Shown here: piece by piece, positions 1-16,568 of the stretch
Layout: the number at the start of each line of letters is the position of its first letter
Position numbering within the stretch: the first letter of the stretch is position 1
Assembly: GCA_016699205.1 (NCBI GenBank)
Contig: CP064964.1
Coordinates: 690,001 to 722,000 of the forward strand
DNA length: 32,000 bases
Direction of reading: 5' to 3'
Origin: Candidatus Saccharimonadota bacterium
GTDB taxonomy: Bacteria; Patescibacteriota; Patescibacteriia; 2-12-FULL-60-25
Program-made: the position numbers and the translations under genes
Notes under the pieces: generated by a model
Told to the model about the DNA's origin: nothing
Seen by the model: only the letters and a program-made list of their open reading frames with translations
Database searches by the model: none

Positions 1-3000
1 GGCAAGCAGATCGCCGTACATAATGGGATTACAGCCATTTATGACGGTGAACTTATTACCTCGTCTCAGCTTGTCTATAATATTTCTGACCCGGTGGTTC
101 CGGTAAATATTGCAAATATTCTTGCTGCAAATGATGTAGGAGATCTTGTATTTAAAAATGATTACCTTTACCAGGTTGGCGCAACGATTAACGTGTACGA
201 CATATCAAGTCCATCAAGTCTTGAGCTCGTTGCGACATCTACTGGTAATGCGCCTTATGCCGCTTTTCTCTCAGGTGGTTATCTCTATGTTACTCGAGAT
301 GCGAGATTGGCTATTTATGATATTTCTGATGCTACGCGTCTAACTGAACTAGGGACCGCGCAGCTCCCGTGTACTCTTTGTCTTGTTGGCAGCAACCAGA
401 CGAATGGCTTGTATGTGAAAGAGCGCTATGCATACATGACGGATATTGGAACCGATAATTTTTATATTATCGATGTAAGTGATCCGTATTCACCGACGCA
501 TACTTCCTATATTTCGGGTTTTAGTAATCCTCAAGGTGTCGTTGCAGAAGGGAACTATGCTTATATGGTTGAAAGCGGCTCCAATGAACTTACTATCATT
601 AACATCGCCTCTTCAACGGAGCCTTTTGTTGCTCGTTCCGTGCCATCGAGTCAGTCTGCACCTACTGAGGTCGCACTTTCAGGCAACTATCTCTATGTCG
701 GAGGCTCGACAGGAGTAGCGGTTTTTGATGTTTCAAGCTCCACTAATCCATTCTTAGTGACAACGCTTGCATCGGGTAGTGTTCAAGATATGCAGGTTGA
801 GGGCAATCAGTTACATGTTGGTACAGCAAGCGCCTATTTCATCTATGAGATGCCAAGTATTACTGCCCCCGCCATGCTCGTCGGTTCCGTCCAGGCAGGC
901 ACAGGTTTGATTGAAAATGACTTCACGATCGGCAATCAGCTGTATGTCGGTGGAGGCATTCATGCCGGAGGCAGCATCATGGCACGCGGTTCCATCAGTG
1001 CCTCTGATATCGATGTTTCCGGATTTGGTTCCGCAACAGCCGTACGTACCGTCCGTGTTGCCAGCCAATCAGTATATGCCGCCGGCGACTATGTCTATAC
1101 GACGAATGATGCGAGTACGCGCGTCCATCAGATTTCTATTGCCAACCCAGAGTTCGCAACCAATACGGCGGCTGGCGTGCTTTCCTCTGCAAGCGGACGC
1201 GACTTGTTTGTGGCTGGCGGCTATCTCTATGTCGCTCAAGGCACCAACGGCCTTGCGATCTTCAGTACGGAGAATGCTACCGGCGTTCTCAGACAGATCA
1301 GTACAACCACCGGTCTTGGAACGGCTCATGAGGTATTTGTCTCCGGCCGCTATGCATATATTGCTGCGCTTGGTACGGGTGTGGAAGTGGTTGATGTCGG
1401 CAATCCGTATACTCCTGTCCTGAAGGAGACCTTTGATGGCAGCGGTACGAATTCCTCCCAAGGCGTTTATCTCCAGGACCGCTATCTCTATGTCGGTGAT
1501 GGTGCTGACGGTTTGCGTATTCTTGATGCCTCGGATCCGGTCGATCTCCGCCAGATCGGTATTCTTAATACGGCCGGTTCTGCAGAAAAGGTGTTCGTGT
1601 CAGAAGGCATCGCTTATGTCACGGATGATACCAACGGTCTTGTGATCGTCGATGTCTCCAACCCGGCAAGCCCTCGACTGCTCTCAACGGTTCCCCCGAT
1701 TTCTAGTGGAAATATTTCCAATGTCACGAAAGCAGGTGACTATCTGTATGTGACATCGGATACGGGTTTGGGCAGCGTTGATAACTTCCGTGTCTTTGAT
1801 GTTTCGAGTTCCACGCGTCCGGTTCTTGTGTGGGGCTTCAATGGTCCGGGGTCTCCGGCTGGGGTGGATGTGAAGGGACGCTATGCGTATGTCGGTGATG
1901 GCGAGCTCTTGCATGTGATCCGTTTACCGGGTGTTGACGCTCCTTCTGCGAATATCGGCTCTTTGTTTACGGGTCAATTGAATGTGGCCGAAGGTGCTGA
2001 TATCGGCAGCTATCTCAATGTGAAGACGGGGCTCAGTGTCGGCAATGGCGGTATTCAGGTTCAGGGTCCTTCCACGATCACTGGTTCTTCCACGGATGCT
2101 ATCCTCCGCGTTCGCAATGCCTACAACTCAAGTACCACGCCATATACGGCATGGGGTATCTTGGTTGATTCGATTGCTGTTTCACCTTCTTTCAACGTTC
2201 CTCCAGCTAACCGTGATTCTTGGTCGATGTATATCGATTATTCTTCTTCATCCAACCGTGGCGGTCTCTGTGTTGATGATGCAATCACTGGCGGCGGTTG
2301 TCCGATTTCCAACATTGGCGGCCGCTCGATCATGACGGATGCAGGTATCACGGCGAATGCCTTTGACTTGGCTGAGCGTTACTCGGTATCTGGTACGGCT
2401 GAAGGCGGAGATCTCCTTGTTCTTGAAACATCGACATCTACGATGGTTACGAAGCATTCGGGCACGATGTATGATCCGAAACTCATCGGTATCGTCTCCT
2501 TGAATCCTGGATTTGAACTCGGCTGGTTCAATCCTTCCAGTACCGATGTCGCTGTTGCCCTTACGGGCCGCGTTCCGACCAAGATCTCGATGAACAATGG
2601 TCCGGTTCAGATTGGCGATCCTCTTACGTCTTCCGATGTCCCTGGCTATGCCATGAAGGCGACGAAGCCGGGTATGATTATTGGTCACGCGCTTCAGAGC
2701 GTGTCTGCTACGGGTACGGCTGAAGTATTTGTTGCTGTCGGGTATTGGGCGGGATCTATTTTAGCAACGGATGGCACAATTACCACGATTCATGACGATC
2801 TCACGATCACCGCTTCCGTATCTGCTACTGATTTAAACCCGACTTCCGATTCATGGGGCCTTACTTTCCGTGGTGAGGCTTGGGATGCATCTTCAACATC
2901 GGTTGTAGCCTCATCTTTTACGCTGTTGACGGATATTCTTTCTGCAACAACTTCGCGCTTTAGTATTCGGTCAACATCAGGAACGGATTTGCTTTCGATC

Positions 3001-4065
3001 GACCAGGTAGGAAATGCCTCTGTTGCAGGTAGTTTGTCAGTTGCAGGTAAGTTTTATCCTTCCTCTAAAGGCGGGGGGCTACAAGATGATTGGTATGTAT
3101 TTGTCGATGATACATCATCGACGGCTGCATATATTTCAACCAATGCAGAAGGTTGGCAGAGTATGGATACGTATGATTTTGCGGAGCGCTATTACTCACC
3201 GGATTCACTTGAGCCGGGTGATGTGGTCATCGTTTCCGATTCAGGACGCATGCATGTACAGCGCTCAATGAACGATAAGGCTATGGTATTGGGTATCGTA
3301 TCGACTCGTCCTGCGTTTATTGCGGGACGTCCGGCAACATCGACATATCCAATCGCGCTTTCTGGCCGTGTACCGACCAAGGTTTCTGGTATGAACGGTG
3401 CTGTTAAGGCAGGTGATCCGTTGGCTCCGACATCGATTCCTGGAGTTGTTGCTAAGGCAATTCATACAGGACCGATCGTTGGTTTGGCCTTGGAAGATTA
3501 CGATCAGACGAATGTCGGTAGTATTGAGGTGTTTGTGAATCCGGGTTGGTGGACCAATCAAGCCGAGACAAATCAGGAAACGATTATCAATAATACGGTT
3601 ATTAATAACGTTACTTCAGGTGTGACGCGTCGCGGTGTCGGTATGATCGTTGCTGGCTCAAAGCGCGTACATATCAGCTTTGACTCGATCGGCGCCTATC
3701 CGTTTGTACAGGTCACACCGCGTGGCTTGATTCAGGGTAATTGGGGTACGGATGGATATAGCGATACGGGTTTCGATATCTTGATGTCAGCTGAACAGAC
3801 ATTCGATGCTTACTTCTCATGGCAGGTGGAGCCGTTACAGGGAAGTGATCGATTGAATTTATCGGACGGCACATCTGCAGACATTGATCCTGTGACGGGT
3901 TTACCTTTTGGTTTTACGACACCAACAACGACGGAATCGATTATTGAGGAGTCTCCGATGACGACTTCGACTGAAGCTTTGTCGGGAAGCGAATCGACCT
4001 CCACTGATTCTGTTACTGGGTCAACAGATTCAGAGGCATCCGCAACATCAAGTGAAGCGATCTAG
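1..4065 (+). CDS. Giant surface/secreted repeat protein, 5'-truncated by the window edge. It has at least 12 LVIVD-type beta-propeller repeats, the conserved C-terminal cassette and a Ser/Thr/Glu-rich tail.
   Basis: The ORF track gives 94..4065, but frame 1 is open from nt 1 (GKQIAVHNGITAIYDGEL...), so the gene enters from upstream. It has recurrent G-x-YAYV...GL-x-I/V-x-DVS-x-P-x-x-P units, e.g. GLVIVDVSNPASPRL at 1636-1680. The last ~600 aa (from ~2260) are paralogous to 10151-11745. Confidence 0.85.
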   Translation, partial: GKQIAVHNGITAIYDGELITSSQLVYNISDPVVPVNIANILAANDVGDLVFKNDYLYQVGATINVYDISSPSSLELVATSTGNAPYAAFLSGGYLYVTRDARLAIYDISDATRLTELGTAQLPCTLCLVGSNQTNGLYVKERYAYMTDIGTDNFYIIDVSDPYSPTHTSYISGFSNPQGVVAEGNYAYMVESGSNELTIINIASSTEPFVARSVPSSQSAPTEVALSGNYLYVGGSTGVAVFDVSSSTNPFLVTTLASGSVQDMQVEGNQLHVGTASAYFIYEMPSITAPAMLVGSVQAGTGLIENDFTIGNQLYVGGGIHAGGSIMARGSISASDIDVSGFGSATAVRTVRVASQSVYAAGDYVYTTNDASTRVHQISIANPEFATNTAAGVLSSASGRDLFVAGGYLYVAQGTNGLAIFSTENATGVLRQISTTTGLGTAHEVFVSGRYAYIAALGTGVEVVDVGNPYTPVLKETFDGSGTNSSQGVYLQDRYLYVGDGADGLRILDASDPVDLRQIGILNTAGSAEKVFVSEGIAYVTDDTNGLVIVDVSNPASPRLLSTVPPISSGNISNVTKAGDYLYVTSDTGLGSVDNFRVFDVSSSTRPVLVWGFNGPGSPAGVDVKGRYAYVGDGELLHVIRLPGVDAPSANIGSLFTGQLNVAEGADIGSYLNVKTGLSVGNGGIQVQGPSTITGSSTDAILRVRNAYNSSTTPYTAWGILVDSIAVSPSFNVPPANRDSWSMYIDYSSSSNRGGLCVDDAITGGGCPISNIGGRSIMTDAGITANAFDLAERYSVSGTAEGGDLLVLETSTSTMVTKHSGTMYDPKLIGIVSLNPGFELGWFNPSSTDVAVALTGRVPTKISMNNGPVQIGDPLTSSDVPGYAMKATKPGMIIGHALQSVSATGTAEVFVAVGYWAGSILATDGTITTIHDDLTITASVSATDLNPTSDSWGLTFRGEAWDASSTSVVASSFTLLTDILSATTSRFSIRSTSGTDLLSIDQVGNASVAGSLSVAGKFYPSSKGGGLQDDWYVFVDDTSSTAAYISTNAEGWQSMDTYDFAERYYSPDSLEPGDVVIVSDSGRMHVQRSMNDKAMVLGIVSTRPAFIAGRPATSTYPIALSGRVPTKVSGMNGAVKAGDPLAPTSIPGVVAKAIHTGPIVGLALEDYDQTNVGSIEVFVNPGWWTNQAETNQETIINNTVINNVTSGVTRRGVGMIVAGSKRVHISFDSIGAYPFVQVTPRGLIQGNWGTDGYSDTGFDILMSAEQTFDAYFSWQVEPLQGSDRLNLSDGTSADIDPVTGLPFGFTTPTTTESIIEESPMTTSTEALSGSESTSTDSVTGSTDSEASATSSEAI

Positions 4066-4241
4066 TCTGGGTAGTTTGAAATTGCGTGTACACAGTTGGA
4101 CACAGGTTATCCACATAGTGAAGATAATATAGGTAACGTAGAAAATTATCGTTTACCTTTTGTTTTAGCTAACTTTCGTCTCATTGATTAATTAATCATA
4201 CAATTGAAGTAGGCTAAGAGTTCACACTTTTGGTCATCGAC

Positions 4242-7200
4242 ATGCCCCGTTCCCTTCGTCCTTTTTTGATCGCTCTCACCCTCCTTCTCGGTGGGTTGTT
4301 TCTGTCTTCCTCGGCTGTCTTGGCTGCTCCTCAAATCAACAATCAGATCAACTATCAAGCTCGCCTCATGGATAGCTCGGGCTTCCCAGTGGCTGATGGA
4401 AACTACTCCGTCTATCTTTCGTTATACGACGCATCGACAGCAGGTACTCGTCTTTGGACAGCGACCGGTACCTTGGCGACTCCAACGCCGCTCACCGTGA
4501 ATGTCCAGAATGGTCTCTTCACCGTTCTTCTTGGCGATACGTCTGCTGCAGGGGGAAGTCAGAACACGCTCGATACCGTGAACTGGAACTCCGACCAGCT
4601 CTACCTTGGCGTCACTATCAACGCTGATGCTGAAATGAGCCCTCGAAAGCGCTTTGCTTCTGCTCCTCAGGCTTTCAATGCCAGACAATTGCAGGGGATG
4701 TATGCCTCGAGTACGGCATCGGGGGGGCAAACACTCTTCACCCTCAATCAAACCCAGAACGATGCCGCTACGGGAACCCGTTCCACTCTCGATGTTCGAT
4801 CCAATGGAACCTCTAACTCCAATGACTTCTTGATTCGAGGCATCAATGATGCAAACGCGGTCGTCTTTTCCATCAATCGCCAAGGATCAGTCACGTCTAC
4901 CAATGTTTTTGTCAGTGGCCTGACAAGTTCCACCAACCTGAACGCCAACATCGCTTCCTTTGCGACCGCAACCGTTGCCGGACAGGGGATTTGTCTCTCC
5001 AATGGACTGTTCTGTTCCACGGGATCAGTCGCTGAAGCCGATACGCTTCAGACCGTATCCAATCGCGGAAGCTTTACCACCACCACCCTTACCTTGTTTG
5101 GCGGGCTTACAGCTTCCAACATCACAGCGACGGGTACTCTTAACGTGACGGGAGTCTCTACTCTTGCTGGAGTTACGTTTACGAATGCGACGGCGACAAG
5201 CGTTACAAGTACCAATGTGTTTGGTGTAAATGGTGCCTTTACAAATCTGACAGTGGATAGTCTGGGTGTCGTTGGCATCACATGGACGAACGCGACAGGT
5301 ACGAACACCACTTCAACAAATCTTTTTGCTTCGAATCTTTTGTTTTCGAATGCCGCTGGTGGAACACTGCTTGCGACGACGGTTTCTACAACCAACCTTA
5401 CTGTTACCGGTCAGCTCGTCTGTTTGGCTGATGGAACGAATTGTCCGTCAGGAACCTCGCCGAATCTCCAGACGGTGACGAATGCCGGCAATACGACCAC
5501 CAACGCGATCCAGTTTGCTGGAGGCACCTCGACGGGAAGCTTTGTTTTTAATGCGACCGCGACCGTCAGCGGAACGCTTGTCTCATTGTCGGTTACTACA
5601 ACTGATCTTTTCGCGAATAACGCTTTTTTTGCAACAGCAACCGTTTCCGGTCAGGCCGTTTGTCTTGCAAATGGTGTTGGTTGTCCAATCGGTACCGTGC
5701 TTAACGATACGCTTCAATCTGTCACGGCTCGCGGTTCCTTTACGACCACCACCGCCCAGTTCTTTGGCGGGTTTGTGGCTGCAAGCTCGAGTGTGACGGG
5801 GACGTTGAATGTTGCGGGAAGCGCTAACCTGCTTCAGAACGCCTATGTTGGTACTTCTACATATTCTGGAGGTCTAAACTCGCTGTTTGCTGCAGACGGC
5901 AATGATTTATTTGTTGCAGGAAGCATTGGTTCGGTTTCATCGATCTATACGAATGGGTCGTTTGTCGCCGGTAGCTCGTCAACTATCTATGCCGATGGTT
6001 CAATTACAAAGACAAACGGAATACTTGAAATTCAAGCTTTTAGCTCGCTTACAGGAGATTATGGTGATCTAGGTTTGCGAGCTGGCGATGGGATCGTTGG
6101 TTTAGAGGATGGTGGCGCTGCATTTATGACGGCTGGCGACGGCGCTTCTGGTGGTGATGGTGGTTGGGCGCAGGTTTTTGCTGGAAATAGCGGTACATCG
6201 AGCGGTGATCTCGCGGGAACGGCCGCCTTGGTAGGTGGCAGCGGTGTTGGTCTTGGTGATGGCGGAGATGTGTTGCTTCAATCTGGCGGTGCAAATAATG
6301 GTGTTGCAGGGGACATTCAGCTTAATGCTGGAAGTGATAGTACTGGCTTTGATCAATCAGGGTCTATCTATCTTCGCCCGGGCATTTCTTCTGCTGCCAG
6401 TTCCTTGAATGATGCTGCTACGTTTGTGATGATTCAAGATGCAAATAATACAGACATCACGGCACAGTTGCGTTTTGGTGAGCTTGCAGGTTCTAACGAT
6501 GATTTTGTTGGTTTTAGAGCTGCAAATACTCTTGCATCAAGTACGATTTGGATTCTGCCGCAGTTTACCGGTGCATCCGGTACTGTGATTGCGACGGATG
6601 GAAATAATCAACTCTATTTCTCAAGCGTCTGTCTCACGGATGGCACCAATTGTCCGGCTTCTTCTGGCCTCGACACCCTCCAATCGGTCACGGCTCGCGG
6701 CAGCTTCACGACCACTACGGCCCAGTTCTTTGGTGGATTCGTCGCAGCTTCATCCTCGGTCACAGGTACCTTTGTCGTCGTCGGTTCTACCTCGCTCCGC
6801 AATGTCGACTTCACAACGGCTACCGGTACTTCGGTCACCACGACTAACCTCTTTGCGACATTGGGTGGCTTTACGACCGCTACGGCAACCAATGCGAATA
6901 TCAACATTCTCTCTGCGGCAACCGGTACGGTTTCTAACCTCAACTTCCGCAATGCGACTGGTACGTTCCTGTTTGCCTCAACAGGTACGTTCGCAACAGT
7001 CACTTCATCGTTCTTGTATGCCAATACGGCTAACTTTGCCACAGCTACCGTTTCCGGTGTCGGTATCTGTTTGAGCAATGGCGTTGGCTGTCCGGCAAGC
7101 GGTTCCTCTAATGACACCCTCCAGTCGGTCACCGCACGCGGCAGCTTCACGACTACCACGGCCCAGTTCTTTGGCGGCTTTGTGGCAGCTTCCTCTTCTG

Positions 7201-10200
7201 TCACAGGAACCTTTGCTGTTGCCGGAACAAGCACCCTTTTGCGCGATGTCTATGTCGGTACCTCTACCTACGATGTTTTCCTGAACTCCGACTTTGTCCT
7301 CGATGGCAATGATCTGTTTGCCGCCGACAATATTGGTTCGGTTTCCTCGATCTTCTCCAATGGCATGCTTGTTACCGGAGAAACCGGTCCTACCTTGTTT
7401 GGAGACGGATTCATCAATCAGACCGATGGCGCGCTCGTTATTTCGGCTGACAGCGCATTCCTGACCCAGCCTTCCATCAGCATTATCGCCGGTGATGTTA
7501 CTTCTGGTCTTGCCGGTGACGTGAATATCCTGGCTGGCAACGGTCTTGGCGGAAACCCAGCTGGAAATATCTATCTCACGCCTGGTGACTCCCTTGGACA
7601 GCCGGGACATCTCTATCTCAATGCTGCAGGCACTTCCAATCAACCGCAATTCCGCTTTGAATCCATCGGTGGAGGCATGGTGAGCTTAGAGGCTCCGAAT
7701 ACCGCTAACACCGAGAACTTTGTCCTTCCATTTGCGGATGGCGCTTCTTCTACCGTCATTGGTACCAATGGCTTCGGAGGTCTCACCTTTGTCTCTGTTT
7801 GTTTGACGGATGGCACCAACTGTCCGGCTTCTTCTGGTGTAGCTGACCTTAACTGGACCTTCAACCTCGCTGGAGATTTTGCGCGAAACGCGACTGCAAC
7901 GACCGATATCGCTATCGGCTCTTCTACCCTAGGCAATGCTCCGTTTGTTTTCCTTAACAATACAACCACTTCACGCTTCCTGATCGGTCAGAACTCCTCG
8001 ACCGGAGCCGGAGCTGATCTCGTGATTGGGGCCACGACGGCTAGCGGCATGAACACCGCCTTCCAGCTCACGGGCGATGATCTCTTTGTGGCTGGCAATA
8101 TCGGGTCTGCTTCCAGCGTGTATACCAATGGCGCTTTTATTGCTGGACCTGGATCGACCCATTACGGCAATGGTTATATCAACAAGAATGATGGATCGCT
8201 GACGCTCTCAGCAAGCCTTGGTATTGTTGCTTCAAGTCGCCTTGATGCTCGCTATCTAAATCGCTGGTTTCTTTCGCCGCTCTTGAAGACGGCTGTGAAT
8301 GGCGGCAAGAGTGTTCGTGTTCCTGTCGGTAACTCTCCTACAAACGCTGCTTTTGATGGCAGCCATATGTGGGTTGTGAATGCTGCTTCTAACAACGTTT
8401 CCAAGATTGATATTACGACCAATACCGTTGTTGCGACGACGACGGTTGGAACAAATCCTGTTGATATTGCTTTTGACGGTACGTACATGTGGGTGGTCAA
8501 CCAATCTTTTGGCAACGTTTCCAAGATTGATATTACGACCAATACCGTTGTTGCGACGACGACGGTAGGAGCAGGTCCTAATGCTGTTGCCTTTGATGGA
8601 ACACACATGTGGGTAGCTAACACAGGCTCTAACAACGTTTCCAAGATTGATATTACGACCAATACCGTTGTTGCGACGACGACGGTTGGAACAGGTCCTA
8701 GCGGCATTGCGTTTGATGGCACCCATATGTGGGTTGCTAATACTACTTCCGCTAATGCTAACAAGATTGAGATCGTAAGTAATACCGTTGTTGCGACGAC
8801 GACGGTAGGAACTGGTGCTTTAGGTATCGCGTTTGATGGCAGCCATATGTGGGTTGCGAATCAAACACAAGATACCATCTCTAAAATTGATATCACGGCT
8901 AATACCGTTGTTGCGACGATGACTGGAACGTCTCCTAATAGTCTCGCGTTTGATGGCACCCATATGTGGGTGACGAAGGGTATCGCAGCTGATGTTATAA
9001 AGATTGATGTTAATACCAACGCTGCTGTTGTCGTTACATCAACAAATGGAGTAGCTGCAAACGGCATTGCGTTTGATGGCACCCATATGTGGGTGACGAA
9101 CGGTGGTAACAATAATGTCATCAAGCTTCCTGTTGGTGGTGGGAATGGAGCAGATATGAACTTTGGCGTGAACCTCGTTCCTACGTCAAATGACACTTTC
9201 GATCTTGGTACGTCTGCGCTTGAATTTAGAAATGGTTTCTTTAGCGGAACCGTCTCTACGACCAATGTTACCGTCGGAGGATTCAATGTTTGTCTCTCTA
9301 ACGGTACGAATTGTCCAGCTTCAGGTACAGAGACGCTGCTTACGGTGTCGAATCGAGGCGCATTAGCGACAAGTACTCTTACGCTCTTTGGCGGGTTTGT
9401 AGCCGCAAGCTCAAGCGTAACCGGGACGTTGAGTGTGGGAGGGGCGCTCAATGTGACAGGAACCGTGAATATCTTGTTACCATCGACTTCAACGCCATTT
9501 TATATTGACGCTCCTGCTCCAACCGATTTTGAACTGTCACAGTTATTGTCGATTTCTACGACGGGATCGGAAGGATTTTTAATCGGTAATTTCAATCTCT
9601 TTGGTTCGGTTAATGCTACGCTGTTAAATTTTACGAAAGATTTGAATGATCCGGTCAATGCTGCCGGTTCGAGAATCTCCTATTATAACGAGTTCAATCA
9701 GATGTCTTTTGGAGTGAATGCCTCTGGTTCAAACGCAACGGTCTTAGAGTTAACTGATAATGATGCCATGTTAAACGGCTTCGGAGCGGAAGCAGCCATG
9801 ACGATCCGTAAATATACGGATACAAGAACGTCCTCGATGATTCATTTGTGGAACTTGGGTTCAAATTCCGGAGAAGTCACGGTTAATGTTGGTTCTAGTG
9901 ATCCAAATGATGTCGTGAATGCACAAATTGGAAGTATTTATTTCCGTCAAAACAGTACCGCTTCCGGCACGCAGGCTTATCTCAATAAGGGGTCGGCGAC
10001 AAGTTGGTATGGCATCGCAACATTAGACATGCTTCCTTCGTCATCGACATTCTCACAAACGCGGACATTCCTCGCGAACCGCACCACGAGCACCCTTGCT
10101 GAACCAAGTAATTTTACGATGACGATCGGTTACTCTTCTGCCACGACTTTTGGAGGTTTGTGTATCGATGATACGTTTAGCGGTACAGGCTGTCCTACGA

Positions 10201-10889
10201 CAAATATTAATGGGGCTTCGATTATGGCGGACGGACCCATCTTGGCAAATGCGTTTGATATTGCTGAATTTTATTCCGTTACAGGTACGGCTGATGCGGG
10301 GGACGTGCTTGTTCTTGATGCATCAAGCACAGCTACTGTTAAGCAGAGCGGCGGTGTTGCCTATGATTCCAAGGTCATCGGTGTTGTCTCTACCGCTCCG
10401 GGATTTGTTCTAGGCTGGTCTGGTGGAACGCGCGTTGCCCTTGCTGGTCGAGTGCCAGTAAAAGTTTCGATGAACAATGGACCGATTCAAGTTGGGGACG
10501 CATTGGTTTCATCGGATGTTCCTGGATATGCCATGAAGGCCACGCGGCCAGGAATGGTGCTTGGCTATGCGCTGGAAAGCGCGTCTGCGACCGGAACGGC
10601 TGAGTTGTTTGTTAATGTAGGTTATTGGGCTGGCATGGCTCTTGCGTCAGATGGATCGATACAGGTTGATGATAGCGGTAATGTATCTGTGATGAATGAT
10701 CTTCATGTTGGAGGAAGATTGTTTCCGAGTTTGCGAGGAGGGGGAATACAAAATCAGTGGTATTTGTTTGTGAATGCCGATGATCCTACCTCGACTTATA
10801 TTTCCACAAATGCCGATGGTTTCCAGAGCATGGATACCTATGACTTTGCCGAACGTTATTATTCACCGGATGAGCTTGGAACCAGGTGA
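4242..10889 (+). CDS. Giant secreted fibre/propeller protein, main part. It is interrupted by a 1-nt frameshift at ~10872 and continues in 10873..11745.
   Basis: ATG at 4242 (the ORF track starts at an upstream TTG, 4230). Signal peptide MPRSLRPFLIALTLLLGGLFLSSSAVLA/AP. T/S/N/G-rich segments are punctuated 7 times by C-L-x-x-G-x-x-C-P. Seven 40-aa blades (consensus core FDG[ST][HY]MWV, flanked by N-V-S-K-I-D-I-T-T-N-T-V-V-A in the central blades) lie at 8310-9140. The C-terminal cassette homologous to 2260-4065 starts at ~10151. Confidence 0.85.
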   Translation: MPRSLRPFLIALTLLLGGLFLSSSAVLAAPQINNQINYQARLMDSSGFPVADGNYSVYLSLYDASTAGTRLWTATGTLATPTPLTVNVQNGLFTVLLGDTSAAGGSQNTLDTVNWNSDQLYLGVTINADAEMSPRKRFASAPQAFNARQLQGMYASSTASGGQTLFTLNQTQNDAATGTRSTLDVRSNGTSNSNDFLIRGINDANAVVFSINRQGSVTSTNVFVSGLTSSTNLNANIASFATATVAGQGICLSNGLFCSTGSVAEADTLQTVSNRGSFTTTTLTLFGGLTASNITATGTLNVTGVSTLAGVTFTNATATSVTSTNVFGVNGAFTNLTVDSLGVVGITWTNATGTNTTSTNLFASNLLFSNAAGGTLLATTVSTTNLTVTGQLVCLADGTNCPSGTSPNLQTVTNAGNTTTNAIQFAGGTSTGSFVFNATATVSGTLVSLSVTTTDLFANNAFFATATVSGQAVCLANGVGCPIGTVLNDTLQSVTARGSFTTTTAQFFGGFVAASSSVTGTLNVAGSANLLQNAYVGTSTYSGGLNSLFAADGNDLFVAGSIGSVSSIYTNGSFVAGSSSTIYADGSITKTNGILEIQAFSSLTGDYGDLGLRAGDGIVGLEDGGAAFMTAGDGASGGDGGWAQVFAGNSGTSSGDLAGTAALVGGSGVGLGDGGDVLLQSGGANNGVAGDIQLNAGSDSTGFDQSGSIYLRPGISSAASSLNDAATFVMIQDANNTDITAQLRFGELAGSNDDFVGFRAANTLASSTIWILPQFTGASGTVIATDGNNQLYFSSVCLTDGTNCPASSGLDTLQSVTARGSFTTTTAQFFGGFVAASSSVTGTFVVVGSTSLRNVDFTTATGTSVTTTNLFATLGGFTTATATNANINILSAATGTVSNLNFRNATGTFLFASTGTFATVTSSFLYANTANFATATVSGVGICLSNGVGCPASGSSNDTLQSVTARGSFTTTTAQFFGGFVAASSSVTGTFAVAGTSTLLRDVYVGTSTYDVFLNSDFVLDGNDLFAADNIGSVSSIFSNGMLVTGETGPTLFGDGFINQTDGALVISADSAFLTQPSISIIAGDVTSGLAGDVNILAGNGLGGNPAGNIYLTPGDSLGQPGHLYLNAAGTSNQPQFRFESIGGGMVSLEAPNTANTENFVLPFADGASSTVIGTNGFGGLTFVSVCLTDGTNCPASSGVADLNWTFNLAGDFARNATATTDIAIGSSTLGNAPFVFLNNTTTSRFLIGQNSSTGAGADLVIGATTASGMNTAFQLTGDDLFVAGNIGSASSVYTNGAFIAGPGSTHYGNGYINKNDGSLTLSASLGIVASSRLDARYLNRWFLSPLLKTAVNGGKSVRVPVGNSPTNAAFDGSHMWVVNAASNNVSKIDITTNTVVATTTVGTNPVDIAFDGTYMWVVNQSFGNVSKIDITTNTVVATTTVGAGPNAVAFDGTHMWVANTGSNNVSKIDITTNTVVATTTVGTGPSGIAFDGTHMWVANTTSANANKIEIVSNTVVATTTVGTGALGIAFDGSHMWVANQTQDTISKIDITANTVVATMTGTSPNSLAFDGTHMWVTKGIAADVIKIDVNTNAAVVVTSTNGVAANGIAFDGTHMWVTNGGNNNVIKLPVGGGNGADMNFGVNLVPTSNDTFDLGTSALEFRNGFFSGTVSTTNVTVGGFNVCLSNGTNCPASGTETLLTVSNRGALATSTLTLFGGFVAASSSVTGTLSVGGALNVTGTVNILLPSTSTPFYIDAPAPTDFELSQLLSISTTGSEGFLIGNFNLFGSVNATLLNFTKDLNDPVNAAGSRISYYNEFNQMSFGVNASGSNATVLELTDNDAMLNGFGAEAAMTIRKYTDTRTSSMIHLWNLGSNSGEVTVNVGSSDPNDVVNAQIGSIYFRQNSTASGTQAYLNKGSATSWYGIATLDMLPSSSTFSQTRTFLANRTTSTLAEPSNFTMTIGYSSATTFGGLCIDDTFSGTGCPTTNINGASIMADGPILANAFDIAEFYSVTGTADAGDVLVLDASSTATVKQSGGVAYDSKVIGVVSTAPGFVLGWSGGTRVALAGRVPVKVSMNNGPIQVGDALVSSDVPGYAMKATRPGMVLGYALESASATGTAELFVNVGYWAGMALASDGSIQVDDSGNVSVMNDLHVGGRLFPSLRGGGIQNQWYLFVNADDPTSTYISTNADGFQSMDTYDFAERYYSPDELGTR
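8394..8806 (+). repeat. In-frame 120-bp-period tandem repeat (propeller blades) with a perfectly identical 53-bp core
   Basis: aacgtttccaagattgatattacgaccaataccgttgttgcgacgacgacggt occurs identically at 8394-8446, 8514-8566 and 8634-8686. A 26-bp sub-core (aataccgttgttgcgacgacgacggt) recurs at 8781-8806, with a degenerate copy at ~8901. Confidence 0.95.
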
Positions 10890-11745
10890 TTTGGTCGTTG
10901 TCTCTGATCATGGCCGCACCCATGTACAGCGCTCGTTGAATGAAGATGATATGTTGCTCGGTATTGTATCGACACGCCCGGCATTTATTGCGGGACGTCC
11001 GGCGACATCGACGTATCCTATTGCTCTTTCTGGCCGTGTTCCGACCAAGGTTTCCAGCATGAACGGCGCGATTAAGGCTGGTGATCCGTTGGCTCCGACA
11101 TCGATTCCGGGTGTCGCGGCTAAGGCGGTCCGTTCTGGTCCTGTTGTCGGTTTGGCGCTTGAGGATTTTGATGGTGCGGAGATCAGCAAGATTGAAGTGT
11201 TTGTGAATCCGAATTATTGGGTGAATGAGCAGGAAGTCGCGGAGCAAGAGGATCCAGAGGTCTCTTCTGAGATCGTTGTCAGCCAGGGTAAGCAGGGATT
11301 TGCGACGATTAGCGCAGGCGCCAAGAAGGTTCGTATCGAGTTCCCGACACTTAACGCCTATCCGAATGTGCAAGTTACGCCGCGTGGGTCTACGGGCGGG
11401 GCTTGGTGGACGGATGGATATTCTGACTCGGGTTTTGAGATCATTATGCAAGAAACCCAGGATCATGACGTCGTGTTTGCCTGGCGCGTAGAAGCTACGA
11501 CGGGAAGGGATGTTATGCGAATGTCGGACGGTACGTATGCGACGGTTGATCCGTTAACCGGTATGCCGACCGATTGGGTTACGACGAGTACCGAACCGAT
11601 CGTAGATGAGCCGGAGCCACCTGCATCGCCGACCACGACCGAGCCGATCATCGAAACTCCCGAGGAAATGCCAGAAGTAGAGGAAGAATTTATCTCTGAG
11701 GGAGAAATACCTGTTGTTAGCCCCACATCGACAGAGGCTTCTTAG
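10873..11745 (+). CDS. C-terminal continuation of the giant protein in the +1 frame: second D-F-A-E-R-Y module, lectin-like terminal domain and acidic/Pro/Thr tail.
   Basis: ORF track 10774..11745. Only the part from 10873 (SLEPGDLVVVSDHGRTHVQRS...) is collinear with protein 1 (SLEPGDVVIVSDSGRMHVQRS...). The two DNA stretches 3286-3450 and 10955-11120 are highly similar by eye. The first 33 codons of the listed ORF are out-of-frame overlap. Confidence 0.8.
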   Translation, partial: SLEPGDLVVVSDHGRTHVQRSLNEDDMLLGIVSTRPAFIAGRPATSTYPIALSGRVPTKVSSMNGAIKAGDPLAPTSIPGVAAKAVRSGPVVGLALEDFDGAEISKIEVFVNPNYWVNEQEVAEQEDPEVSSEIVVSQGKQGFATISAGAKKVRIEFPTLNAYPNVQVTPRGSTGGAWWTDGYSDSGFEIIMQETQDHDVVFAWRVEATTGRDVMRMSDGTYATVDPLTGMPTDWVTTSTEPIVDEPEPPASPTTTEPIIETPEEMPEVEEEFISEGEIPVVSPTSTEAS

Positions 11746-11826: not shown

Positions 11827-14298
11827 ATGAGCACTATTTTTTCTCGTTTCGAAGGCTCGCCTAGCGCGAGCAACCCGGAGCCCCTTAAATCAATGCCGGG
11901 TGTTTCAAAAGTTCTTAATACGATCATCGACGTTTGTCTTCATGGCGCCGTCTTTTTGATCCCGTTGTTTTTTAGCTCGCTTACGATCGACGTACTTGAG
12001 TTGAACAAGCAGACCATCCTCGTCATTTTGGCGACGGTAGCCGGTGTGGCTTGGTTGGGTAAGGCTTTGGCCGACAAGCAGTTTACGATTGTCCGAAGCT
12101 GGATTCACTTGGTAGCCGTCCTCTTTGGTCTTGGTTACCTGCTCGTCTCCCTTCTTTCCGGTGACCGCTATCTCTCGATGGTTGGTACGCTTGGACAGAT
12201 GCCGTGGGCTTTTTCTACGGTTGCAGCTTTGGTGGTGTTTTACGTCGTTTCCGTTCACCGCATCCGCCAGACCTCGCAGGTTTACGACTTTGTTTTCAGC
12301 TTCCTGCTTAGCTCGCTTATCGCTGGTGTTTACGGATTGCTGCAGATGTTCGGTATCTTCTTGATTCCGGTCGCTGCTTCCCAGGTAAAGACCTTTACGA
12401 GCGTTGGTAGCGTCTTCAGCTTTGCCGTTTACATGACGATTCCGCTTATCATTGCTTCTAGCCTTGCTTTCCATGGCTGCCGAAACAATGTCTGCTTGCT
12501 CGGCTCTCAGAAAATGAGCGGGCAGGTTGCTCGTGGAATGGTATGGGCCACGATCGCTGTTTCCTTGATCTCTTTGATCATTGTCGACTACTGGGTCGCT
12601 TGGGCTGCATTGCTTTTTGGAACCTTGCTCACGGTTGTTATCGGCTACTTGCGTACGCGTCAGATTGGTTCTCCGGCCAAGCTCGCTATTCCGGGTGTCT
12701 TGATCGCGGTTTCGGTTTTGCTCTTGTTCTTCCGCACGCCGATCAACTTGAACTTGCCGTCTGAAGTCTCGCCGTCCGCCATGGCTTCCATGAACATTGC
12801 CAAGGAGGCGTTGCGTGAGATGCCGGTGTTTGGTTCTGGTCCGGGTACGTGGATTTACGACTATGCCAAGTATCGCGTACAGATGGTGAACCTTTCACCG
12901 TTCTGGAATGTCCGCTTTGATCGTGGTTTCTCGTTCTTCCTTACCTTGCTCGCTACGACGGGTATCGTTGGTGCCGCCCTTTGGCTCCTCCTTATCATCT
13001 CGGCCATCGTAAAGAGCGCTGGTCACTTGATGAGCGAGCGTAATGATGATGTTTGGTATGCCTACCTTATCGTCTTCACGGGTTGGTTGACCTTGGTGTT
13101 TGTTTCCTTCTTCTACAACTACAACATGGCGCATGTGTTTGCGCTGTGGCTCTTGTTCTCCTTGCTTGGTTCGTTGGTTGGCCGCAACACGATGACTTGG
13201 GATGCACGTAAGAGCACGTATGCTTACGGTATTCTCTCGGTCGTGTTCGTGGTCGCTTTGATCGGCGGTATCTCGGTCACTTGGATCTCTGGTCAGCGCT
13301 ATGTTGCGGATGCTGCATTCACGGGTGCTGTGAATGACTTCCGCGCCGGAAAGCCAGTGGATGAGATCATCGTCAAGATTCAGAAGGCGAGCTCGCTTAA
13401 CCCGATGCTCGACATGTACATGCGTAACTTGTCGCAGGCTCACTTGATCAAGGCGGCTAACTTGATTCAGGCTGGTGCGTCTGCAGAACAGGTTCCGGCC
13501 ATTCAGAATGAAATCAAGATGGCTGTCGACATGGGTTTGAACGCCACCAAGCTTGCCCCGGCAAACGTCGACAACTGGTCTAACCTCGGTTTGATCTACC
13601 AGAGTGTCGCGAGCTTTACCCGTGGTGCTGATGAATTTGCGATCAAGAACTACGAGGAAGCTACGATGCGTGAACCGCAGAACCCGGTCTTCTTGAACGA
13701 AGTCGGTAAGCTTTACTTGCTCCGCTCGGATGCCTATCGCACACAGTTGAATGCTGGTGATGCTGCCGCCCGCGCCGAGACTCAGAAGAACGTGAATGAC
13801 AACTTGGCTCTTGGCGAGCAGAAGCTTAAGGCTGCTATTGCAGCCAAGCCTGACTATCTTCCAGCCCGCTATCACCTCGGTATTGTTTACGAGCGCCAGG
13901 GACGCGTGAAGGATGCGATCACGGAGCTTGAGAATGTCTTGCGTATCAACAATAAGGATCTCGGAGTCGCTTTTGAACTCTCGATTCTTTACTACCGCAA
14001 CAATCAAAAGAACGAATCGCTTGAGCTCATGCAGCAAGTCTCGACGATCGAACCTTCCAACGTGAATGCCCGCTGGTATCTCTCGGCAATGCTCGAGGAA
14101 CGCGGCCAGTATCAGGATGCTTTGAATCAGATCAAGCCGTTGGCAGAACAGTATCCGGGTAATGCCGCGATCCAGCAGCGTTTGAACGCTTTGACGACAG
14201 CCGTCAACGCCAACTTGCGCCCGGAGACGCGTAACTTGCCAGAGCCGATCCGTGAAGAAATCAACAGCCAGTCCGACATCAACCCGGTTCGTCAGTAA
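11827..14298 (+). CDS. Polytopic membrane protein with a Wzy_C/O-antigen-ligase-like core fused to C-terminal TPR repeats
   Basis: An 823-aa ORF with about 12 hydrophobic segments. The loop GSGPGTWIYDYAKY...RFDRGFSFFLTLLATTGIVGAALWLLLI resembles the Wzy_C family by eye. The C-terminal ~330 aa have TPR-like A/Y/L periodicity (ARYHLGIVYERQGRVKDAITELENVLRIN...). Confidence 0.6.
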   Translation: MSTIFSRFEGSPSASNPEPLKSMPGVSKVLNTIIDVCLHGAVFLIPLFFSSLTIDVLELNKQTILVILATVAGVAWLGKALADKQFTIVRSWIHLVAVLFGLGYLLVSLLSGDRYLSMVGTLGQMPWAFSTVAALVVFYVVSVHRIRQTSQVYDFVFSFLLSSLIAGVYGLLQMFGIFLIPVAASQVKTFTSVGSVFSFAVYMTIPLIIASSLAFHGCRNNVCLLGSQKMSGQVARGMVWATIAVSLISLIIVDYWVAWAALLFGTLLTVVIGYLRTRQIGSPAKLAIPGVLIAVSVLLLFFRTPINLNLPSEVSPSAMASMNIAKEALREMPVFGSGPGTWIYDYAKYRVQMVNLSPFWNVRFDRGFSFFLTLLATTGIVGAALWLLLIISAIVKSAGHLMSERNDDVWYAYLIVFTGWLTLVFVSFFYNYNMAHVFALWLLFSLLGSLVGRNTMTWDARKSTYAYGILSVVFVVALIGGISVTWISGQRYVADAAFTGAVNDFRAGKPVDEIIVKIQKASSLNPMLDMYMRNLSQAHLIKAANLIQAGASAEQVPAIQNEIKMAVDMGLNATKLAPANVDNWSNLGLIYQSVASFTRGADEFAIKNYEEATMREPQNPVFLNEVGKLYLLRSDAYRTQLNAGDAAARAETQKNVNDNLALGEQKLKAAIAAKPDYLPARYHLGIVYERQGRVKDAITELENVLRINNKDLGVAFELSILYYRNNQKNESLELMQQVSTIEPSNVNARWYLSAMLEERGQYQDALNQIKPLAEQYPGNAAIQQRLNALTTAVNANLRPETRNLPEPIREEINSQSDINPVRQ

Positions 14299-15086: not shown

Positions 15087-15170
15087 GGATTGACGGAAGG
15101 AGCGCGTTTTGGCATTATTTTCCTGCTCCTGGGCCCGTATCGTTATCACGATCCGGTCCCTCGTCACTCG

Positions 15171-15199
15171 GTAACAAGAAGATTACTTCTTGTTACACT
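15171..15199 (+). promoter_or_regulatory. Possible tRNA-Ala promoter (GTAACA-N17-TACACT) embedded in a perfect 11-bp-stem inverted repeat
   Basis: GTAACAAGAAG-ATTA-CTTCTTGTTAC spans 15171-15196. The -10-like TACACT at 15194-15199 ends 9 nt before the tRNA 5' end. Confidence 0.25.
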
Positions 15200-15208
15200 C
15201 GTTTCCTC

Positions 15209-15284
15209 GGGCCCTTAGCTCAGCTGGTAGAGCGCTTCCATGGCATGGAAGAGGTCAACGGTTCGATCCCGTTAGGGTCCACCA
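15209..15284 (+). tRNA. tRNA-Ala (anticodon GGC), CCA encoded
   Basis: Hand-folded cloverleaf. The acceptor GGGCCCT/AGGGTCC contains the G3:U70 alanine identity pair. D arm GCTC-AGCTGGTA-GAGC. Anticodon arm CTTCC-ATGGCAT-GGAAG (U33, GGC, A37). T arm AACGG-TTCGATC-CCGTT. Discriminator A followed by CCA. Confidence 0.93.
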
Positions 15285-15285
15285 C

Positions 15286-16567: not shown

Positions 16568-16568
16568 A

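What the first reader, a model, noticed from the sequence alone, without database searches (positions are those of the whole stretch)
1..11745. Tandem giant surface proteins: different beta-propeller/fibre 'heads' on a shared C-terminal cassette
Two adjacent same-strand genes occupy 11.7 kb, more than a third of the window; one exceeds 1350 aa and is truncated, the other is about 2500 aa. Their N-terminal parts are unrelated. Protein 1 is LVIVD-type propeller repeats. Protein 2 has a signal peptide, T/S/N-rich fibre segments and a 7-blade 40-aa-repeat propeller.

The last 530-600 aa are clearly paralogous (2260-4065 versus 10151-11745). Highly similar DNA stretches, e.g. 3286-3450 versus 10955-11120, show this directly. 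A constant module combined with swappable binding modules is the logic of polymorphic adhesins and phage receptor-binding proteins. In a reduced-genome organism, the locus is a strong candidate for the host or partner attachment apparatus.
Basis: partly seen in the sequence, partly recalled or inferred. Interest (0 to 1): 0.7.

Follow-up and report, generated by a model that had tools for sequence, protein, structure and literature searches.

The report
Modular surface fibres with phage-type chaperone
Two neighbouring giant secreted proteins of a small-genome Uhrbacteria (CPR) bacterium share a C-terminal end related to the folding module that phage tail spikes cut off after assembly, so they are probably trimeric surface fibres with exchangeable binding parts; the second gene is broken by one extra base.

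Summary
Gene 1 (1-4065, open at the 5' end) and gene 2 (4242-11745) are adjacent on the same strand. Their last ~550-620 aa are paralogous (58-60% identity, E 1e-119). Correction: gene 2 is not one intact ORF, because a single extra G at 10878 splits it. Five related sequences from four relatives, and the gene 1 paralog, lack that G.

The cassette contains two copies of a ~150-aa beta domain, then a ~100-aa beta-sandwich and an acidic Ser/Thr-rich tail. The repeated domain is homologous to the C-terminal autochaperone of phage phi29 tail-spike protein gp12 (Peptidase_G2 type). A conserved D-x-A-E motif aligns with the first residues of the gp12 fragment released by self-cleavage.

Across 77 related loci (Ca. 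Uhrbacteria/Patescibacteria), 36 of 37 complete homologues also share gene 2's N-terminal domain. Only the middle varies, from 0 to about 2,800 aa of propellers and fibre modules. Close relatives carry different middles at the same locus.

So "constant part plus swappable binders" is right, but both ends are constant. The cassette is more likely an assembly module than a base. A role in host attachment was not tested. A membrane/TPR protein, weakly similar to O-antigen ligase, is a conserved downstream neighbour.

The parts
1..4065 (+). Gene 1 (5'-truncated by the window; 1354 aa visible): LVIVD propeller region plus cassette 1
   Evidence: Open frame from base 1 to the stop. LVIVD PF08309 E 1e-52.
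1..1920 (+). LVIVD-repeat beta-propeller region of gene 1 (variable 'middle' module)
   Evidence: Pfam LVIVD, 5 matched stretches, and Beta_propel PF09826. Only 24-32% identical to the LVIVD blocks of close relatives.
2206..4065 (+). Cassette 1, about 620 aa: C-x9-C loop, domain A copy 1, about 115-aa linker (includes ~70 aa absent from gene 2), domain A copy 2, beta-sandwich, acidic Ser/Thr tail
   Evidence: BLASTP against gene 2. AF2 model with three confident beta domains at model residues 50-180, 325-450 and 475-570.
2332..2772 (+). Domain A copy 1 of gene 1 (gp12-type autochaperone-like beta domain); D-L-A-E motif at 2365-2376
   Evidence: HMM of the domain, E 1e-51. Motif position.
3121..3582 (+). 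Domain A copy 2 of gene 1; D-F-A-E motif at 3175-3186
   Evidence: HMM E 9e-68. The family profile hits phi29 gp12 at its released C-terminal fragment.
3622..3921 (+). C-terminal ~100-aa beta-sandwich of gene 1 (family unassigned), followed by a disordered acidic Ser/Thr tail to 4062
   Evidence: pLDDT 82-93 in the model. Conserved in 46 homologues. No PDB or Pfam match.
4242..11745 (+). Gene 2 (2500 aa from ATG 4242, or 2504 aa from TTG 4230, if one base is removed): signal peptide, conserved N-domain, fibre modules, 7-blade propeller, cassette 2. As sequenced it is interrupted by a +1 frameshift.
   Evidence: ORFs 4230-10889 and 10774-11745. Reconstruction.
4242..4325 (+). Predicted Sec signal peptide (MPRSLRPFLIALTLLLGGLFLSSSAVLA)
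   Evidence: Read from the sequence. Helix 7-23 in the model. No predictor was run.
4335..5249 (+). Family-wide conserved N-terminal domain ('P2N'); confident beta-sandwich at 4341-4664
   Evidence: 45-58% identical to the N-termini of ~930-1040-aa homologues. Present in 36 of 37 complete homologues. Model pLDDT 83-97, mostly above 90, for residues 38-145.
4990..8300 (+). Thr/Ser/Asn/Gly-rich fibre modules punctuated by V-C-L-x-[DN]-G-x-x-C-P loops, plus Gly-rich segments
   Evidence: Every Cys in P2 lies in one of 8 C-x6-9-C pairs. DNA repeat families D4, D6 and D7.
8310..9130 (+). Seven-bladed YncE/YVTN-type beta-propeller (40-aa blades)
   Evidence: 7 copies at 117-123 nt spacing. PF21783 and TIGR02276 above their cut-offs.
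10098..11745 (+). Cassette 2 (paralog of 2206-4065, without the ~70-aa segment)
   Evidence: BLASTP 58-60%. 72-78% identical to the cassettes of relatives.
10218..10652 (+). Domain A copy 1 of gene 2; D-I-A-E motif at 10257-10268
   Evidence: HMM E 1e-53. Motif.
10788..11244 (+). Domain A copy 2 of gene 2, split by the frameshift; D-F-A-E motif at 10842-10853
   Evidence: Two HMM pieces in different frames: 10788-10877 and 10867-11244.
10878..10879 (+). One extra G (either of these two G bases), giving a +1 frameshift and a premature TGA at 10887-10889
   Evidence: Sequence. Alignment with the gene 1 paralog and relatives L048, L083, L084 and L018, all of which lack it.
11290..11580 (+). C-terminal beta-sandwich of gene 2, followed by an acidic/Pro-rich tail to 11742
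   Evidence: HMM of the domain.
11827..14298 (+). Conserved downstream neighbour: polytopic membrane protein (about 550 aa) with C-terminal TPR repeats; weak O-antigen-ligase (Wzy_C) signal
   Evidence: TPR families. Lies within 1.5 kb downstream of the cassette gene in 51 of 72 loci. 3 of 18 homologues hit PF04932 at best E 8e-4. JGI names two homologues 'TPR/O-antigen ligase'.
14307..15086 (+). Conserved 259-aa gene after the TPR gene; charged, with no family match. Any link to the fibres is unknown.
   Evidence: No Pfam or NCBIfam hit. Homologue in the same position in L002, L048, L051 and others.

Best explanation
The two genes belong to a large Patescibacteria (mainly Ca. Uhrbacteria) family of Sec-exported, modular cell-surface fibre proteins. 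The family is built like phage tail fibres, in three parts.

1. A conserved N-terminal beta-sandwich domain follows the signal peptide. I infer that it is the cell-proximal docking end.
2. A freely exchangeable middle is made of Cys-loop-punctuated Thr/Ser/Asn-rich shaft modules and beta-propellers (LVIVD in gene 1, a 7-blade YVTN type in gene 2). I infer that this part does the binding.
3. A conserved C-terminal cassette contains two copies of a domain homologous to the phi29 gp12 (Peptidase_G2-type) intramolecular autochaperone. I infer that it nucleates folding and trimerisation from the C-terminus. It may then cut itself off in front of the conserved Asp of D-x-A-E.

Shown here: the paralogy, the homology to gp12, the conserved motif, constant ends with a variable middle, module exchange between close relatives, and chromosomal (non-prophage) context.

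Inferred only: trimer formation, self-cleavage, which end faces the cell, and a role in attachment to a host or partner.

Gene 2 as sequenced is frameshifted nine codons after its second D-F-A-E motif. Either the assembly has a one-base error, or this copy makes a 2215-aa protein (from ATG 4242) that lacks the second chaperone domain and the terminal sandwich.
For: Paralogy and duplication:
- Cassette paralogy, E 1e-119.
- Internal duplication, with four domain copies in the window.

Homology to gp12:
- The profile of the domain (A1) hits phi29 gp12. 3gqh_A, the 163-aa released C-terminal fragment, starts at residue 1 = D of DFAEYF, aligned to the family's D-x-A-E (E 6e-5). Full-length 6qz9_A aligns at 688-744 (E 7e-5). 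The tailspike chaperone domain of Dpo31 (28nb) also hits, at E 0.012.
- Pfam Peptidase_G2 scores above its gathering score at the start of the same domain in relatives P0048, P0050 and P0053.
- AF2 gives three confident beta domains.
- Foldseek against BFVD returns 79 hits at E<=1e-3. The second-ranked and clearest is 'Preneck appendage protein' (E 1.5e-10, TM 0.67); many tail-fibre proteins and DUF2190 also match.
- Foldseek against PDB returns phage trimeric cement proteins, the phi29 gp8.5 base and gp12 3suc.
- D-x-[AG]-E is present in 150 of 155 domain copies, and D, A and E are each >=90% conserved.
- In many distant relatives the domain is the very last thing in the protein. One carries a phage tail Collar domain and others carry Peptidase_S74.

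Export:
- N-terminal signal peptide; all 16 Cys of P2 lie in C-x6-9-C pairs; no transmembrane segment or LPXTG motif.

Architecture:
- 37 complete ORFs span 935-3811 aa, and 36 of them have the N-domain.
- Representatives reach 6814 aa with the two copies near the C-terminus.
- Module swaps occur among relatives whose TPR neighbour is 85-88% identical.

Context:
- Neighbouring genes are housekeeping genes, and PHROGs gave only two weak hits (E 9e-5 and 0.004), both to the C-terminal fragment of gene 2.

General logic of such chaperone domains: PMC4690869 and PMC8326128.
Against: - The window's own proteins do not hit Peptidase_G2 or any Pfam model over the cassette, even at E<=10. The link rests on a family profile with modest E-values and on fold matches.
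- gp12 has one chaperone domain at the extreme C-terminus. Here there are two, followed by a further conserved domain, which would be wasteful if everything is discarded.
- The residue before the Asp is Phe or Tyr here (Tyr, Phe or Ala in 118 of the 150 family copies) but Ser in gp12.
- As I recall the gp12 paper (Xiang et al. 2009, not readable here), release of its chaperone needs ATP, which is not available outside the cell.
- The top PDB fold matches are capsid cement proteins, which are never cleaved.
- No multimer prediction was possible. The monomer models are poor outside the globular domains (pTM 0.32 and 0.39).
- The N-domain gave only generic beta-sandwich matches, so 'anchor' is only an analogy.
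Confidence: 0.55

Rival explanations
1. One reading: the C-terminal cassette is the permanent constant base or anchor of a polymorphic adhesin, and the N-terminal parts are interchangeable binding heads.
For: The cassette is more conserved than the propellers. It ends in a conserved beta-sandwich and a long tail that could contact the envelope.
Against: The N-terminal domain is also constant, in 36 of 37 complete homologues. The cassette has no transmembrane segment, no LPXTG motif and no known wall-binding domain. Its repeated domain is homologous to a module that sits at the distal C-terminal end of phage spikes and is removed.
Confidence: 0.12
2. The repeated domain is a permanent, uncleaved trimerisation or 'cement'-type beta-tulip domain. 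The cassette stays on the mature fibre, and its terminal beta-sandwich acts as a distal tip domain (possibly carbohydrate-binding).
For: The best PDB fold matches are uncleaved capsid cement and decoration trimers and DUF2190. Weak Phage_cement_2 hits occur in relatives. Two copies plus a conserved extra domain make more sense if they are retained. ATP-dependent release cannot work outside the cell.
Against: The D-x-A-E motif that marks the gp12 cleavage point is kept in 150 of 155 copies. Sequence-level matches are to gp12 rather than to cement proteins.
Confidence: 0.25
3. The genes are phage or prophage tail-fibre genes, or a recent phage-derived island, rather than cellular surface proteins.
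For: Fold and profile matches are almost all to phage proteins.
Against: Gene 2 has a Sec signal peptide. PHROGs gave only two weak hits (E 9e-5 and 0.004) to the C-terminal fragment of gene 2, and there are no other phage genes in the 32 kb. The position next to the same TPR gene is conserved in 51 of 72 loci across Uhrbacteria and related Patescibacteria, amid housekeeping genes.
Confidence: 0.03
4. Gene 2 is a pseudogene in this genome, so only gene 1 is a working fibre.
For: A one-base insertion unique to this sequence gives a premature stop.
Against: There are no further stops or indels downstream. The downstream 289 codons still match relatives across the whole cassette at 72-78%, so any inactivation is very recent. 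A single-base assembly error is equally likely. The truncated product would still keep one chaperone domain.
Confidence: 0.3

Closest known systems
Phage phi29 gp12 pre-neck appendage (tail spike) C-terminal autochaperone; MEROPS/Pfam Peptidase_G2 (PF11962); PDB 3gqh, 3suc, 6qz9
   Same: Homologous beta domain at the C-terminal end of a fibrous protein. The D-F-A-E motif sits at the position where the released gp12 fragment begins. G-V-[IV]-S and L-x-G-[RQ]-[VI] motifs are shared. The fold matches. One conserved C-terminal module serves many different N-terminal parts.
   Different: The protein is cellular and Sec-exported, not a virion protein. The domain is duplicated and followed by another domain and a disordered tail. 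Phe or Tyr precedes the Asp instead of Ser. The window proteins score below Pfam's threshold. Cleavage and trimerisation are untested. ATP-dependent release is not possible outside the cell.
Endosialidase-type intramolecular chaperone domain (Peptidase_S74, PF13884) of phage tail fibres and spikes (K1F endoNF, T5 pb1, GA-1 gp12) and of MyRF
   Same: The same logic: a C-terminal module conserved across otherwise unrelated fibres drives trimer folding and is then auto-released (PMC4690869, PMC8326128). Some distant relatives of the cassette domain also carry PF13884.
   Different: The fold and catalytic motif differ (Ser-Lys dyad, helical/tentacle body). There is no PF13884 hit in the window proteins.
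Phage capsid cement/decoration trimers (DUF2190 / Phage_cement_2; Pam3, HFTV1, TW1, BB1) and the phi29 head-fibre gp8.5 base
   Same: Best PDB fold matches to the repeated domain (TM 0.4-0.68 normalised to the target). DUF2190 matches in BFVD with TM 0.76.
   Different: These are small capsid-bound proteins. They are not part of fibres, are not cleaved, and show no significant sequence match apart from weak Phage_cement_2 hits in two relatives.
Giant surface proteins of CPR bacteria proposed to mediate host attachment (e.g. Vampirococcus lugosii, PMC8080830)
   Same: Reduced-genome CPR organism. Very large predicted surface proteins with interaction domains, including propellers. The same functional guess.
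   Different: That work lists WD40, PKD, integrin and similar domains and describes no phage-type C-terminal chaperone cassette or constant-ends architecture.
LVIVD-repeat and YVTN-repeat cell-surface proteins of archaea and bacteria (PF08309; TIGR02276; PMC2447325)
   Same: Gene 1 and gene 2 carry these repeats above the curated thresholds.
   Different: Here they are interchangeable inserts within a larger fibre framework.

Membership tests
Peptidase_G2 / phi29 gp12-type intramolecular autochaperone domain | Match to Pfam PF11962 at or above the gathering score | tested here: not met
   There is no Pfam hit on any cassette piece of the window, even at E<=10. Relatives P0048, P0050 and P0053 score 34-37 bits against a cut-off of 25, at the start of the same domain.
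Peptidase_G2 / phi29 gp12-type intramolecular autochaperone domain | Detectable sequence homology to the gp12 C-terminal domain | tested here: met
   Profile A1 against PDB: 3gqh_A E 6e-5, 6qz9_A E 7e-5, 3suc_A E 1e-3. 8h2i_cU matches the same kind of domain at E 8.5e-6.
Peptidase_G2 / phi29 gp12-type intramolecular autochaperone domain | Same fold as the gp12 C-terminal 'barrel' | tested here: met
   BFVD 'Preneck appendage protein' E 1.5e-10, TM 0.67, and 'preneck appendage protein barrel' E 1.2e-9. 3suc is rank 20 in PDB at E 0.027.
Peptidase_G2 / phi29 gp12-type intramolecular autochaperone domain | Conserved Asp and Glu (D-x-x-E) at the cleavage point. Their catalytic role in gp12 is recalled from Xiang et al. 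2009 and MEROPS G2, not verified here. | tested here: met
   D-[LIF]-A-E is present in all four window copies. It occurs in 150 of 155 family copies and aligns with residue 1 of the released fragment 3gqh.
Peptidase_G2 / phi29 gp12-type intramolecular autochaperone domain | Single domain at the extreme C-terminus of a trimeric spike or fibre | tested here: not met
   In the window proteins the domain occurs twice and is followed by about 160-170 more residues. Many distant relatives do end with it.
Peptidase_G2 / phi29 gp12-type intramolecular autochaperone domain | Autoproteolytic release after trimerisation | not testable with these tools
   This needs biochemistry or proteomics.
Peptidase_S74 (endosialidase-type chaperone) | PF13884 match with the Ser-Lys motif | tested here: not met
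   No hit in the window proteins.
LVIVD-repeat beta-propeller proteins | PF08309 above the gathering score | tested here: met
   Gene 1 scores 175.5 bits against a cut-off of 20.2.
YncE/YVTN beta-propeller | PF21783 or TIGR02276 above the cut-off, with seven ~40-aa blades | tested here: met
   44 bits against 27.1, and 69.4 bits against 27.85. Seven 120-nt units.
Sortase-anchored (LPXTG) or membrane-anchored adhesins | C-terminal LPXTG motif, or a hydrophobic anchor | tested here: not met
   There is no LP.[TSA]G motif and no hydrophobic stretch. The tails are acidic and Ser/Thr/Pro-rich.
Phage/prophage tail fibre | Encoded among virion genes; no secretion signal | tested here: not met
   Gene 2 has a signal peptide. 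Neighbours are housekeeping genes and synteny is conserved. PHROGs gave only two weak hits, E 9e-5 and 0.004.
O-antigen ligase / Wzy_C superfamily (for the downstream TPR membrane protein) | PF04932 match | tested here: inconclusive
   The window protein has no hit. 3 of 18 homologues hit at best E 8e-4. A profile search against PDB found nothing.

The most novel reading that the evidence does not exclude
Uhrbacteria and related CPR bacteria have taken over the phage tail-spike assembly device, here as a tandem pair of gp12-type self-cleaving autochaperones. They use it to build, outside the cell and without ATP, a family of trimeric attachment fibres. The propeller and shaft modules of these fibres are shuffled between tandem paralogs and between strains. 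The fibres are matured or glycosylated with help from the co-encoded Wzy_C-like/TPR membrane protein. The two D-x-A-E sites would give a two-step maturation that uncovers the distal tip.
Probability: 0.2. Interest if true: 0.75.

Novelty: new variant of a known kind. Interest (0 to 1): 0.55.

Why it matters
How CPR/Patescibacteria cells recognise and hold on to partners is largely unknown, and their largest genes are mostly annotated as 'hypothetical'.

This locus defines a large family. The repeated domain alone finds 11,561 cluster representatives at E<=1e-3, 275 of them at E<=1e-30, in proteins up to 6.8 kaa.

The family has clear architectural rules: a constant N-domain, a shuffled middle, and a constant double phage-type chaperone cassette. 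It also has a conserved membrane-protein neighbour.

Three practical consequences follow:
- The cassette and N-domain can serve as markers to find such fibres in MAGs.
- The propellers are identified as the parts to examine for specificity.
- The cleavage hypothesis can be tested directly by mutating D-x-A-E.

The family would also be an example of a phage spike-assembly module used by cells. Xiang et al. (2009) raised this possibility for bacterial adhesins (recalled from the abstract; not readable here).

Tried and rejected
- **Direct family searches on the cassette.** Pfam, NCBIfam and PHROGs gave nothing useful. A single-sequence PDB search gave nothing.
- **H-type lectin idea.** I suspected the last beta-sandwich was an H-type lectin, from its pattern and from the source name of hit P0093. 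A profile search against PDB and Pfam on 19 members do not support this. Only one weak K1-lyase_C hit appeared (E 0.012).
- **N-domain.** Its model gave only generic Ig/macroglobulin/prealbumin-like matches at E>0.02. A homology search with it returned 5 fragments. My recollection that similar 'INYQG' N-domains head tail-fibre-like proteins in other phyla is therefore untested.
- **Programmed +1 frameshifting at 10878.** Considered and judged unlikely. CTT-G is not a good slippery site, no stop or rare codon is placed as in prfB, and all relatives encode the region in one frame.
- **Recent gene conversion between the two cassettes.** Rejected. Identity is 62% overall, the longest identical run is 29 nt, and the 87% peak coincides with the most conserved protein core.
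- **Exact-pattern scan of metagenome contigs for the frameshift site.** No match. The near-identical contig L082 (94.8% nt) stops 205 nt short of the site.
- **Literature.** Searches for Peptidase_G2, for gp12 catalytic residues, and for Patescibacteria plus tail fibre or chaperone found no description of this family. The key gp12 paper (PMC2692858) is not held.
- **Promoter and terminator scans.** Uninformative between the genes.
- **Membrane half of the TPR neighbour.** No PDB match.

Full report
**1. Observation**

Frame 1 of the + strand is open from base 1 to a stop at 4063-4065 (1354 aa, 5' end outside the window). A second gene on the same strand begins at ATG 4242 (TTG 4230 in the ORF list).

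Gene 1 carries LVIVD repeats (PF08309, E 1e-52). Gene 2 carries a YncE/YVTN-type propeller made of seven 120-nt units at 8310-9130. Gene 2 starts with a typical signal peptide.

BLASTP between the two proteins matches only their C-terminal parts:
- P1 736-927 to P2 1957-2144: 60% identity.
- P1 998-1322 to P2 2144-2470: 58% identity, E 1e-119.

The paralogy is therefore real and far beyond chance.

One thing was missed: gene 2 is split into ORFs 4230-10889 and 10774-11745. The cause is one extra G in CTT-G-GAA at 10878. The in-window paralog and relatives L048, L083, L084 and L018 all lack it. No independent copy of this exact genome covering the site was found. An assembly error and a very recent truncating mutation therefore cannot be told apart.

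**2. Anatomy of the cassette**

An HMM built from the hits finds exactly four copies of a ~150-aa domain in the window, two per gene:
- Gene 1: 2332-2772 and 3121-3582.
- Gene 2: 10218-10652 and 10788-11244.

An AlphaFold2 model of the gene 1 cassette has three confident all-beta domains: the two copies and a ~100-aa terminal sandwich. They are joined by low-confidence linkers, and the last 45 aa are a disordered acidic Ser/Thr tail.

**3. Identity of the repeated domain**

Direct Pfam, NCBIfam, PHROGs and PDB searches with the window sequences gave nothing. Four other lines of evidence converge on phage phi29 gp12.

- *Profile against PDB.* A profile of 35 diverse copies (A1) hits the pre-neck appendage (tail-spike) protein gp12.
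  - 3gqh_A, the 163-aa C-terminal fragment released by self-processing, aligns from its first residue (D of DFAEYFES) to the family's nearly invariant D-x-A-E (E 6e-5).
  - Full-length gp12 (6qz9_A) aligns at 688-744, which places that Asp at residue 692.
  - A tailspike 'chaperone domain D4' (28nb) also appears, at E 0.012.
- *Pfam in relatives.* Peptidase_G2 (PF11962) scores above its cut-off on the start of the same domain in P0048, P0050 and P0053.
- *Fold, viral library.* The model matches predicted viral structures named 'Preneck appendage protein' (E 1.5e-10, TM 0.67). It also matches many tail-fibre proteins and DUF2190.
- *Fold, PDB.* The model matches trimeric capsid cement proteins, the phi29 gp8.5 base and gp12 (3suc).

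D-x-[AG]-E is present in 150 of 155 copies of the domain. In many distant relatives the domain ends the protein. Some of those relatives carry a phage tail Collar domain or Peptidase_S74 upstream.

The terminal sandwich could not be assigned to a family.

**4. The family and the locus in other genomes**

Homologues are almost all from Ca. Uhrbacteria and other Patescibacteria MAGs. Many TPA records titled 'uncultured Gammaproteobacteria' share the same synteny and look mislabelled. The source genome itself is not in the genome collection. The nearest relatives have the neighbouring TPR gene at 85-99% protein identity.

A module map of 77 loci shows the following:
- 37 complete ORFs range from 935 to 3811 aa.
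- 36 of the 37 begin with the domain found at the N-terminus of gene 2.
- The shortest are simply N-domain plus cassette.
- The extra length is LVIVD blocks, YVTN propellers and Cys-loop fibre modules.
- Representatives elsewhere reach 6814 aa.

The constant parts are therefore both ends, and the middle is what varies.

Close relatives show exchange at the same locus:
- *L048* (TPR 85% identical). The gene at the position of gene 2 matches P2 966-1422 at 69% and the cassette at 76%. It has about 790 aa of LVIVD repeats where gene 2 has the rest of its propeller.
- *JAIOPK010000017.1* (TPR 88% identical). This contig has three tandem family genes with different, reordered middles.

Tandem or multiple copies per genome are common.

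The gene after the last fibre gene is a polytopic membrane protein with C-terminal TPR repeats in 51 of 72 loci. Its membrane half has only a weak O-antigen-ligase signal.

The rest of the window is ordinary chromosomal content:
- PNPase
- LeuRS
- LspA
- DksA-type protein
- M23/LysM peptidase
- ComM-like ATPase
- NYN-domain protein
- ArsR-family regulator
- sugar nucleotidyltransferase

PHROGs gave only two weak hits, both to the C-terminal fragment of gene 2.

**5. Most likely mechanism**

The proteins are exported by Sec. This rests on the signal peptide and on the fact that every Cys of P2 lies in one of eight C-x6-9-C pairs, with no anchor motif.

By homology with gp12, and by the general logic of C-terminal intramolecular chaperones (PMC4690869; PMC8326128), the cassette most likely nucleates trimer folding from the C-terminus. 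It may then cut itself off before the Asp of D-x-A-E.

By analogy with phage fibres, the conserved N-domain would be the proximal docking end, and the propellers would be the exchangeable binding parts.

| Status | Points |
|---|---|
| Shown | homology; motif conservation; constant ends with a variable middle; module exchange; cellular context |
| Inferred | trimer formation; self-cleavage; orientation; function in partner attachment |

Points against a full equivalence with gp12:
- The window proteins score below Pfam's threshold.
- There are two copies, followed by an extra conserved domain.
- Phe or Tyr precedes the Asp instead of Ser.
- The ATP-dependent release recalled for gp12 could not operate outside the cell.
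- The closest solved folds are uncleaved cement proteins.

A permanent, uncleaved trimerisation module is therefore a serious rival (0.25).

**6. Comparison with what is known, and novelty**

The locus works like a phage fibre with a C-terminal autochaperone. It meets some defining features of the Peptidase_G2 family (sequence homology, fold, motif) and fails others (Pfam threshold, single terminal copy). Processing is untested.

Giant CPR surface proteins have been proposed as attachment factors (PMC8080830). My searches found no description of this cassette or architecture.

I rate it a new variant of a known kind, of moderate interest.

Noticed in passing
window 27275-30223 (+): The leucyl-tRNA synthetase (982 aa) contains a NUDIX domain (PF00293, E 4e-15) at residues 411-537. 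This lies between the editing domain and the rest of the catalytic core, which is an unusual insertion.
   Followed up: no
window 11827-14298 (+), and the same position in 51 of 72 related loci: A ~820-aa protein is the conserved downstream neighbour of the fibre gene(s). It has a ~550-aa polytopic membrane half and C-terminal TPR repeats. The membrane half has no family match in the window protein. 3 of 18 homologues hit Wzy_C (O-antigen ligase) weakly, and JGI labels two homologues 'O-antigen ligase'. It may glycosylate, anchor or assemble the Ser/Thr-rich fibres.
   Followed up: partly
window 10878-10889: A single extra G creates a +1 frameshift and a premature TGA in gene 2, nine codons after its second D-F-A-E motif. 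If real, the product would keep one chaperone domain and lose the second one and the terminal sandwich.
   Followed up: yes
P2 residues 255-1695 (window about 4990-9320); also P1 757-767 and P2 1978-1988: All cysteines of gene 2 occur as eight C-x6-9-C pairs. Seven are in a recurring V-C-L-x-[DN]-G-x-x-C-P motif that marks the borders of fibre modules, often followed by ...TLQ[ST]V[ST].RG.FTTTT..FFGG.... One more opens each cassette. These look like disulphide-closed loops at module junctions.
   Followed up: partly
Loci L008-L081: Dozens of TPA MAG records titled 'uncultured Gammaproteobacteria bacterium' carry this Patescibacteria-type fibre/TPR locus with the same synteny. The record titles are probably wrong.
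   Followed up: no
L002 5914-7511, compared with window 15100-17000: Between the conserved 255/259-aa gene and the M23/LysM peptidase gene, the relative L002 has a cNMP-binding + CAP12/PCTIR TIR-domain gene (defence-like) plus a further 230-aa gene without a family match. The window instead has an ArsR-type regulator, two AHSA1/SRPBCC genes and a 103-aa ORF without a family match on the minus strand. This is a small variable island.
   Followed up: no
L001 6825-9887; L003 2991-6443: In more distant relatives the gene upstream of the fibre gene is another large protein (1020-1150 aa; in L001 it has fn3 and CarboxypepD_reg domains). It lacks the cassette and has no similarity to genes 1 or 2. 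The locus seems to collect large surface proteins of different kinds.
   Followed up: partly
window 8348-8947: The propeller blades of gene 2 are 70-80% identical to each other at the DNA level over 240-nt units. This suggests recent internal duplication or homogenisation of blades.
   Followed up: no
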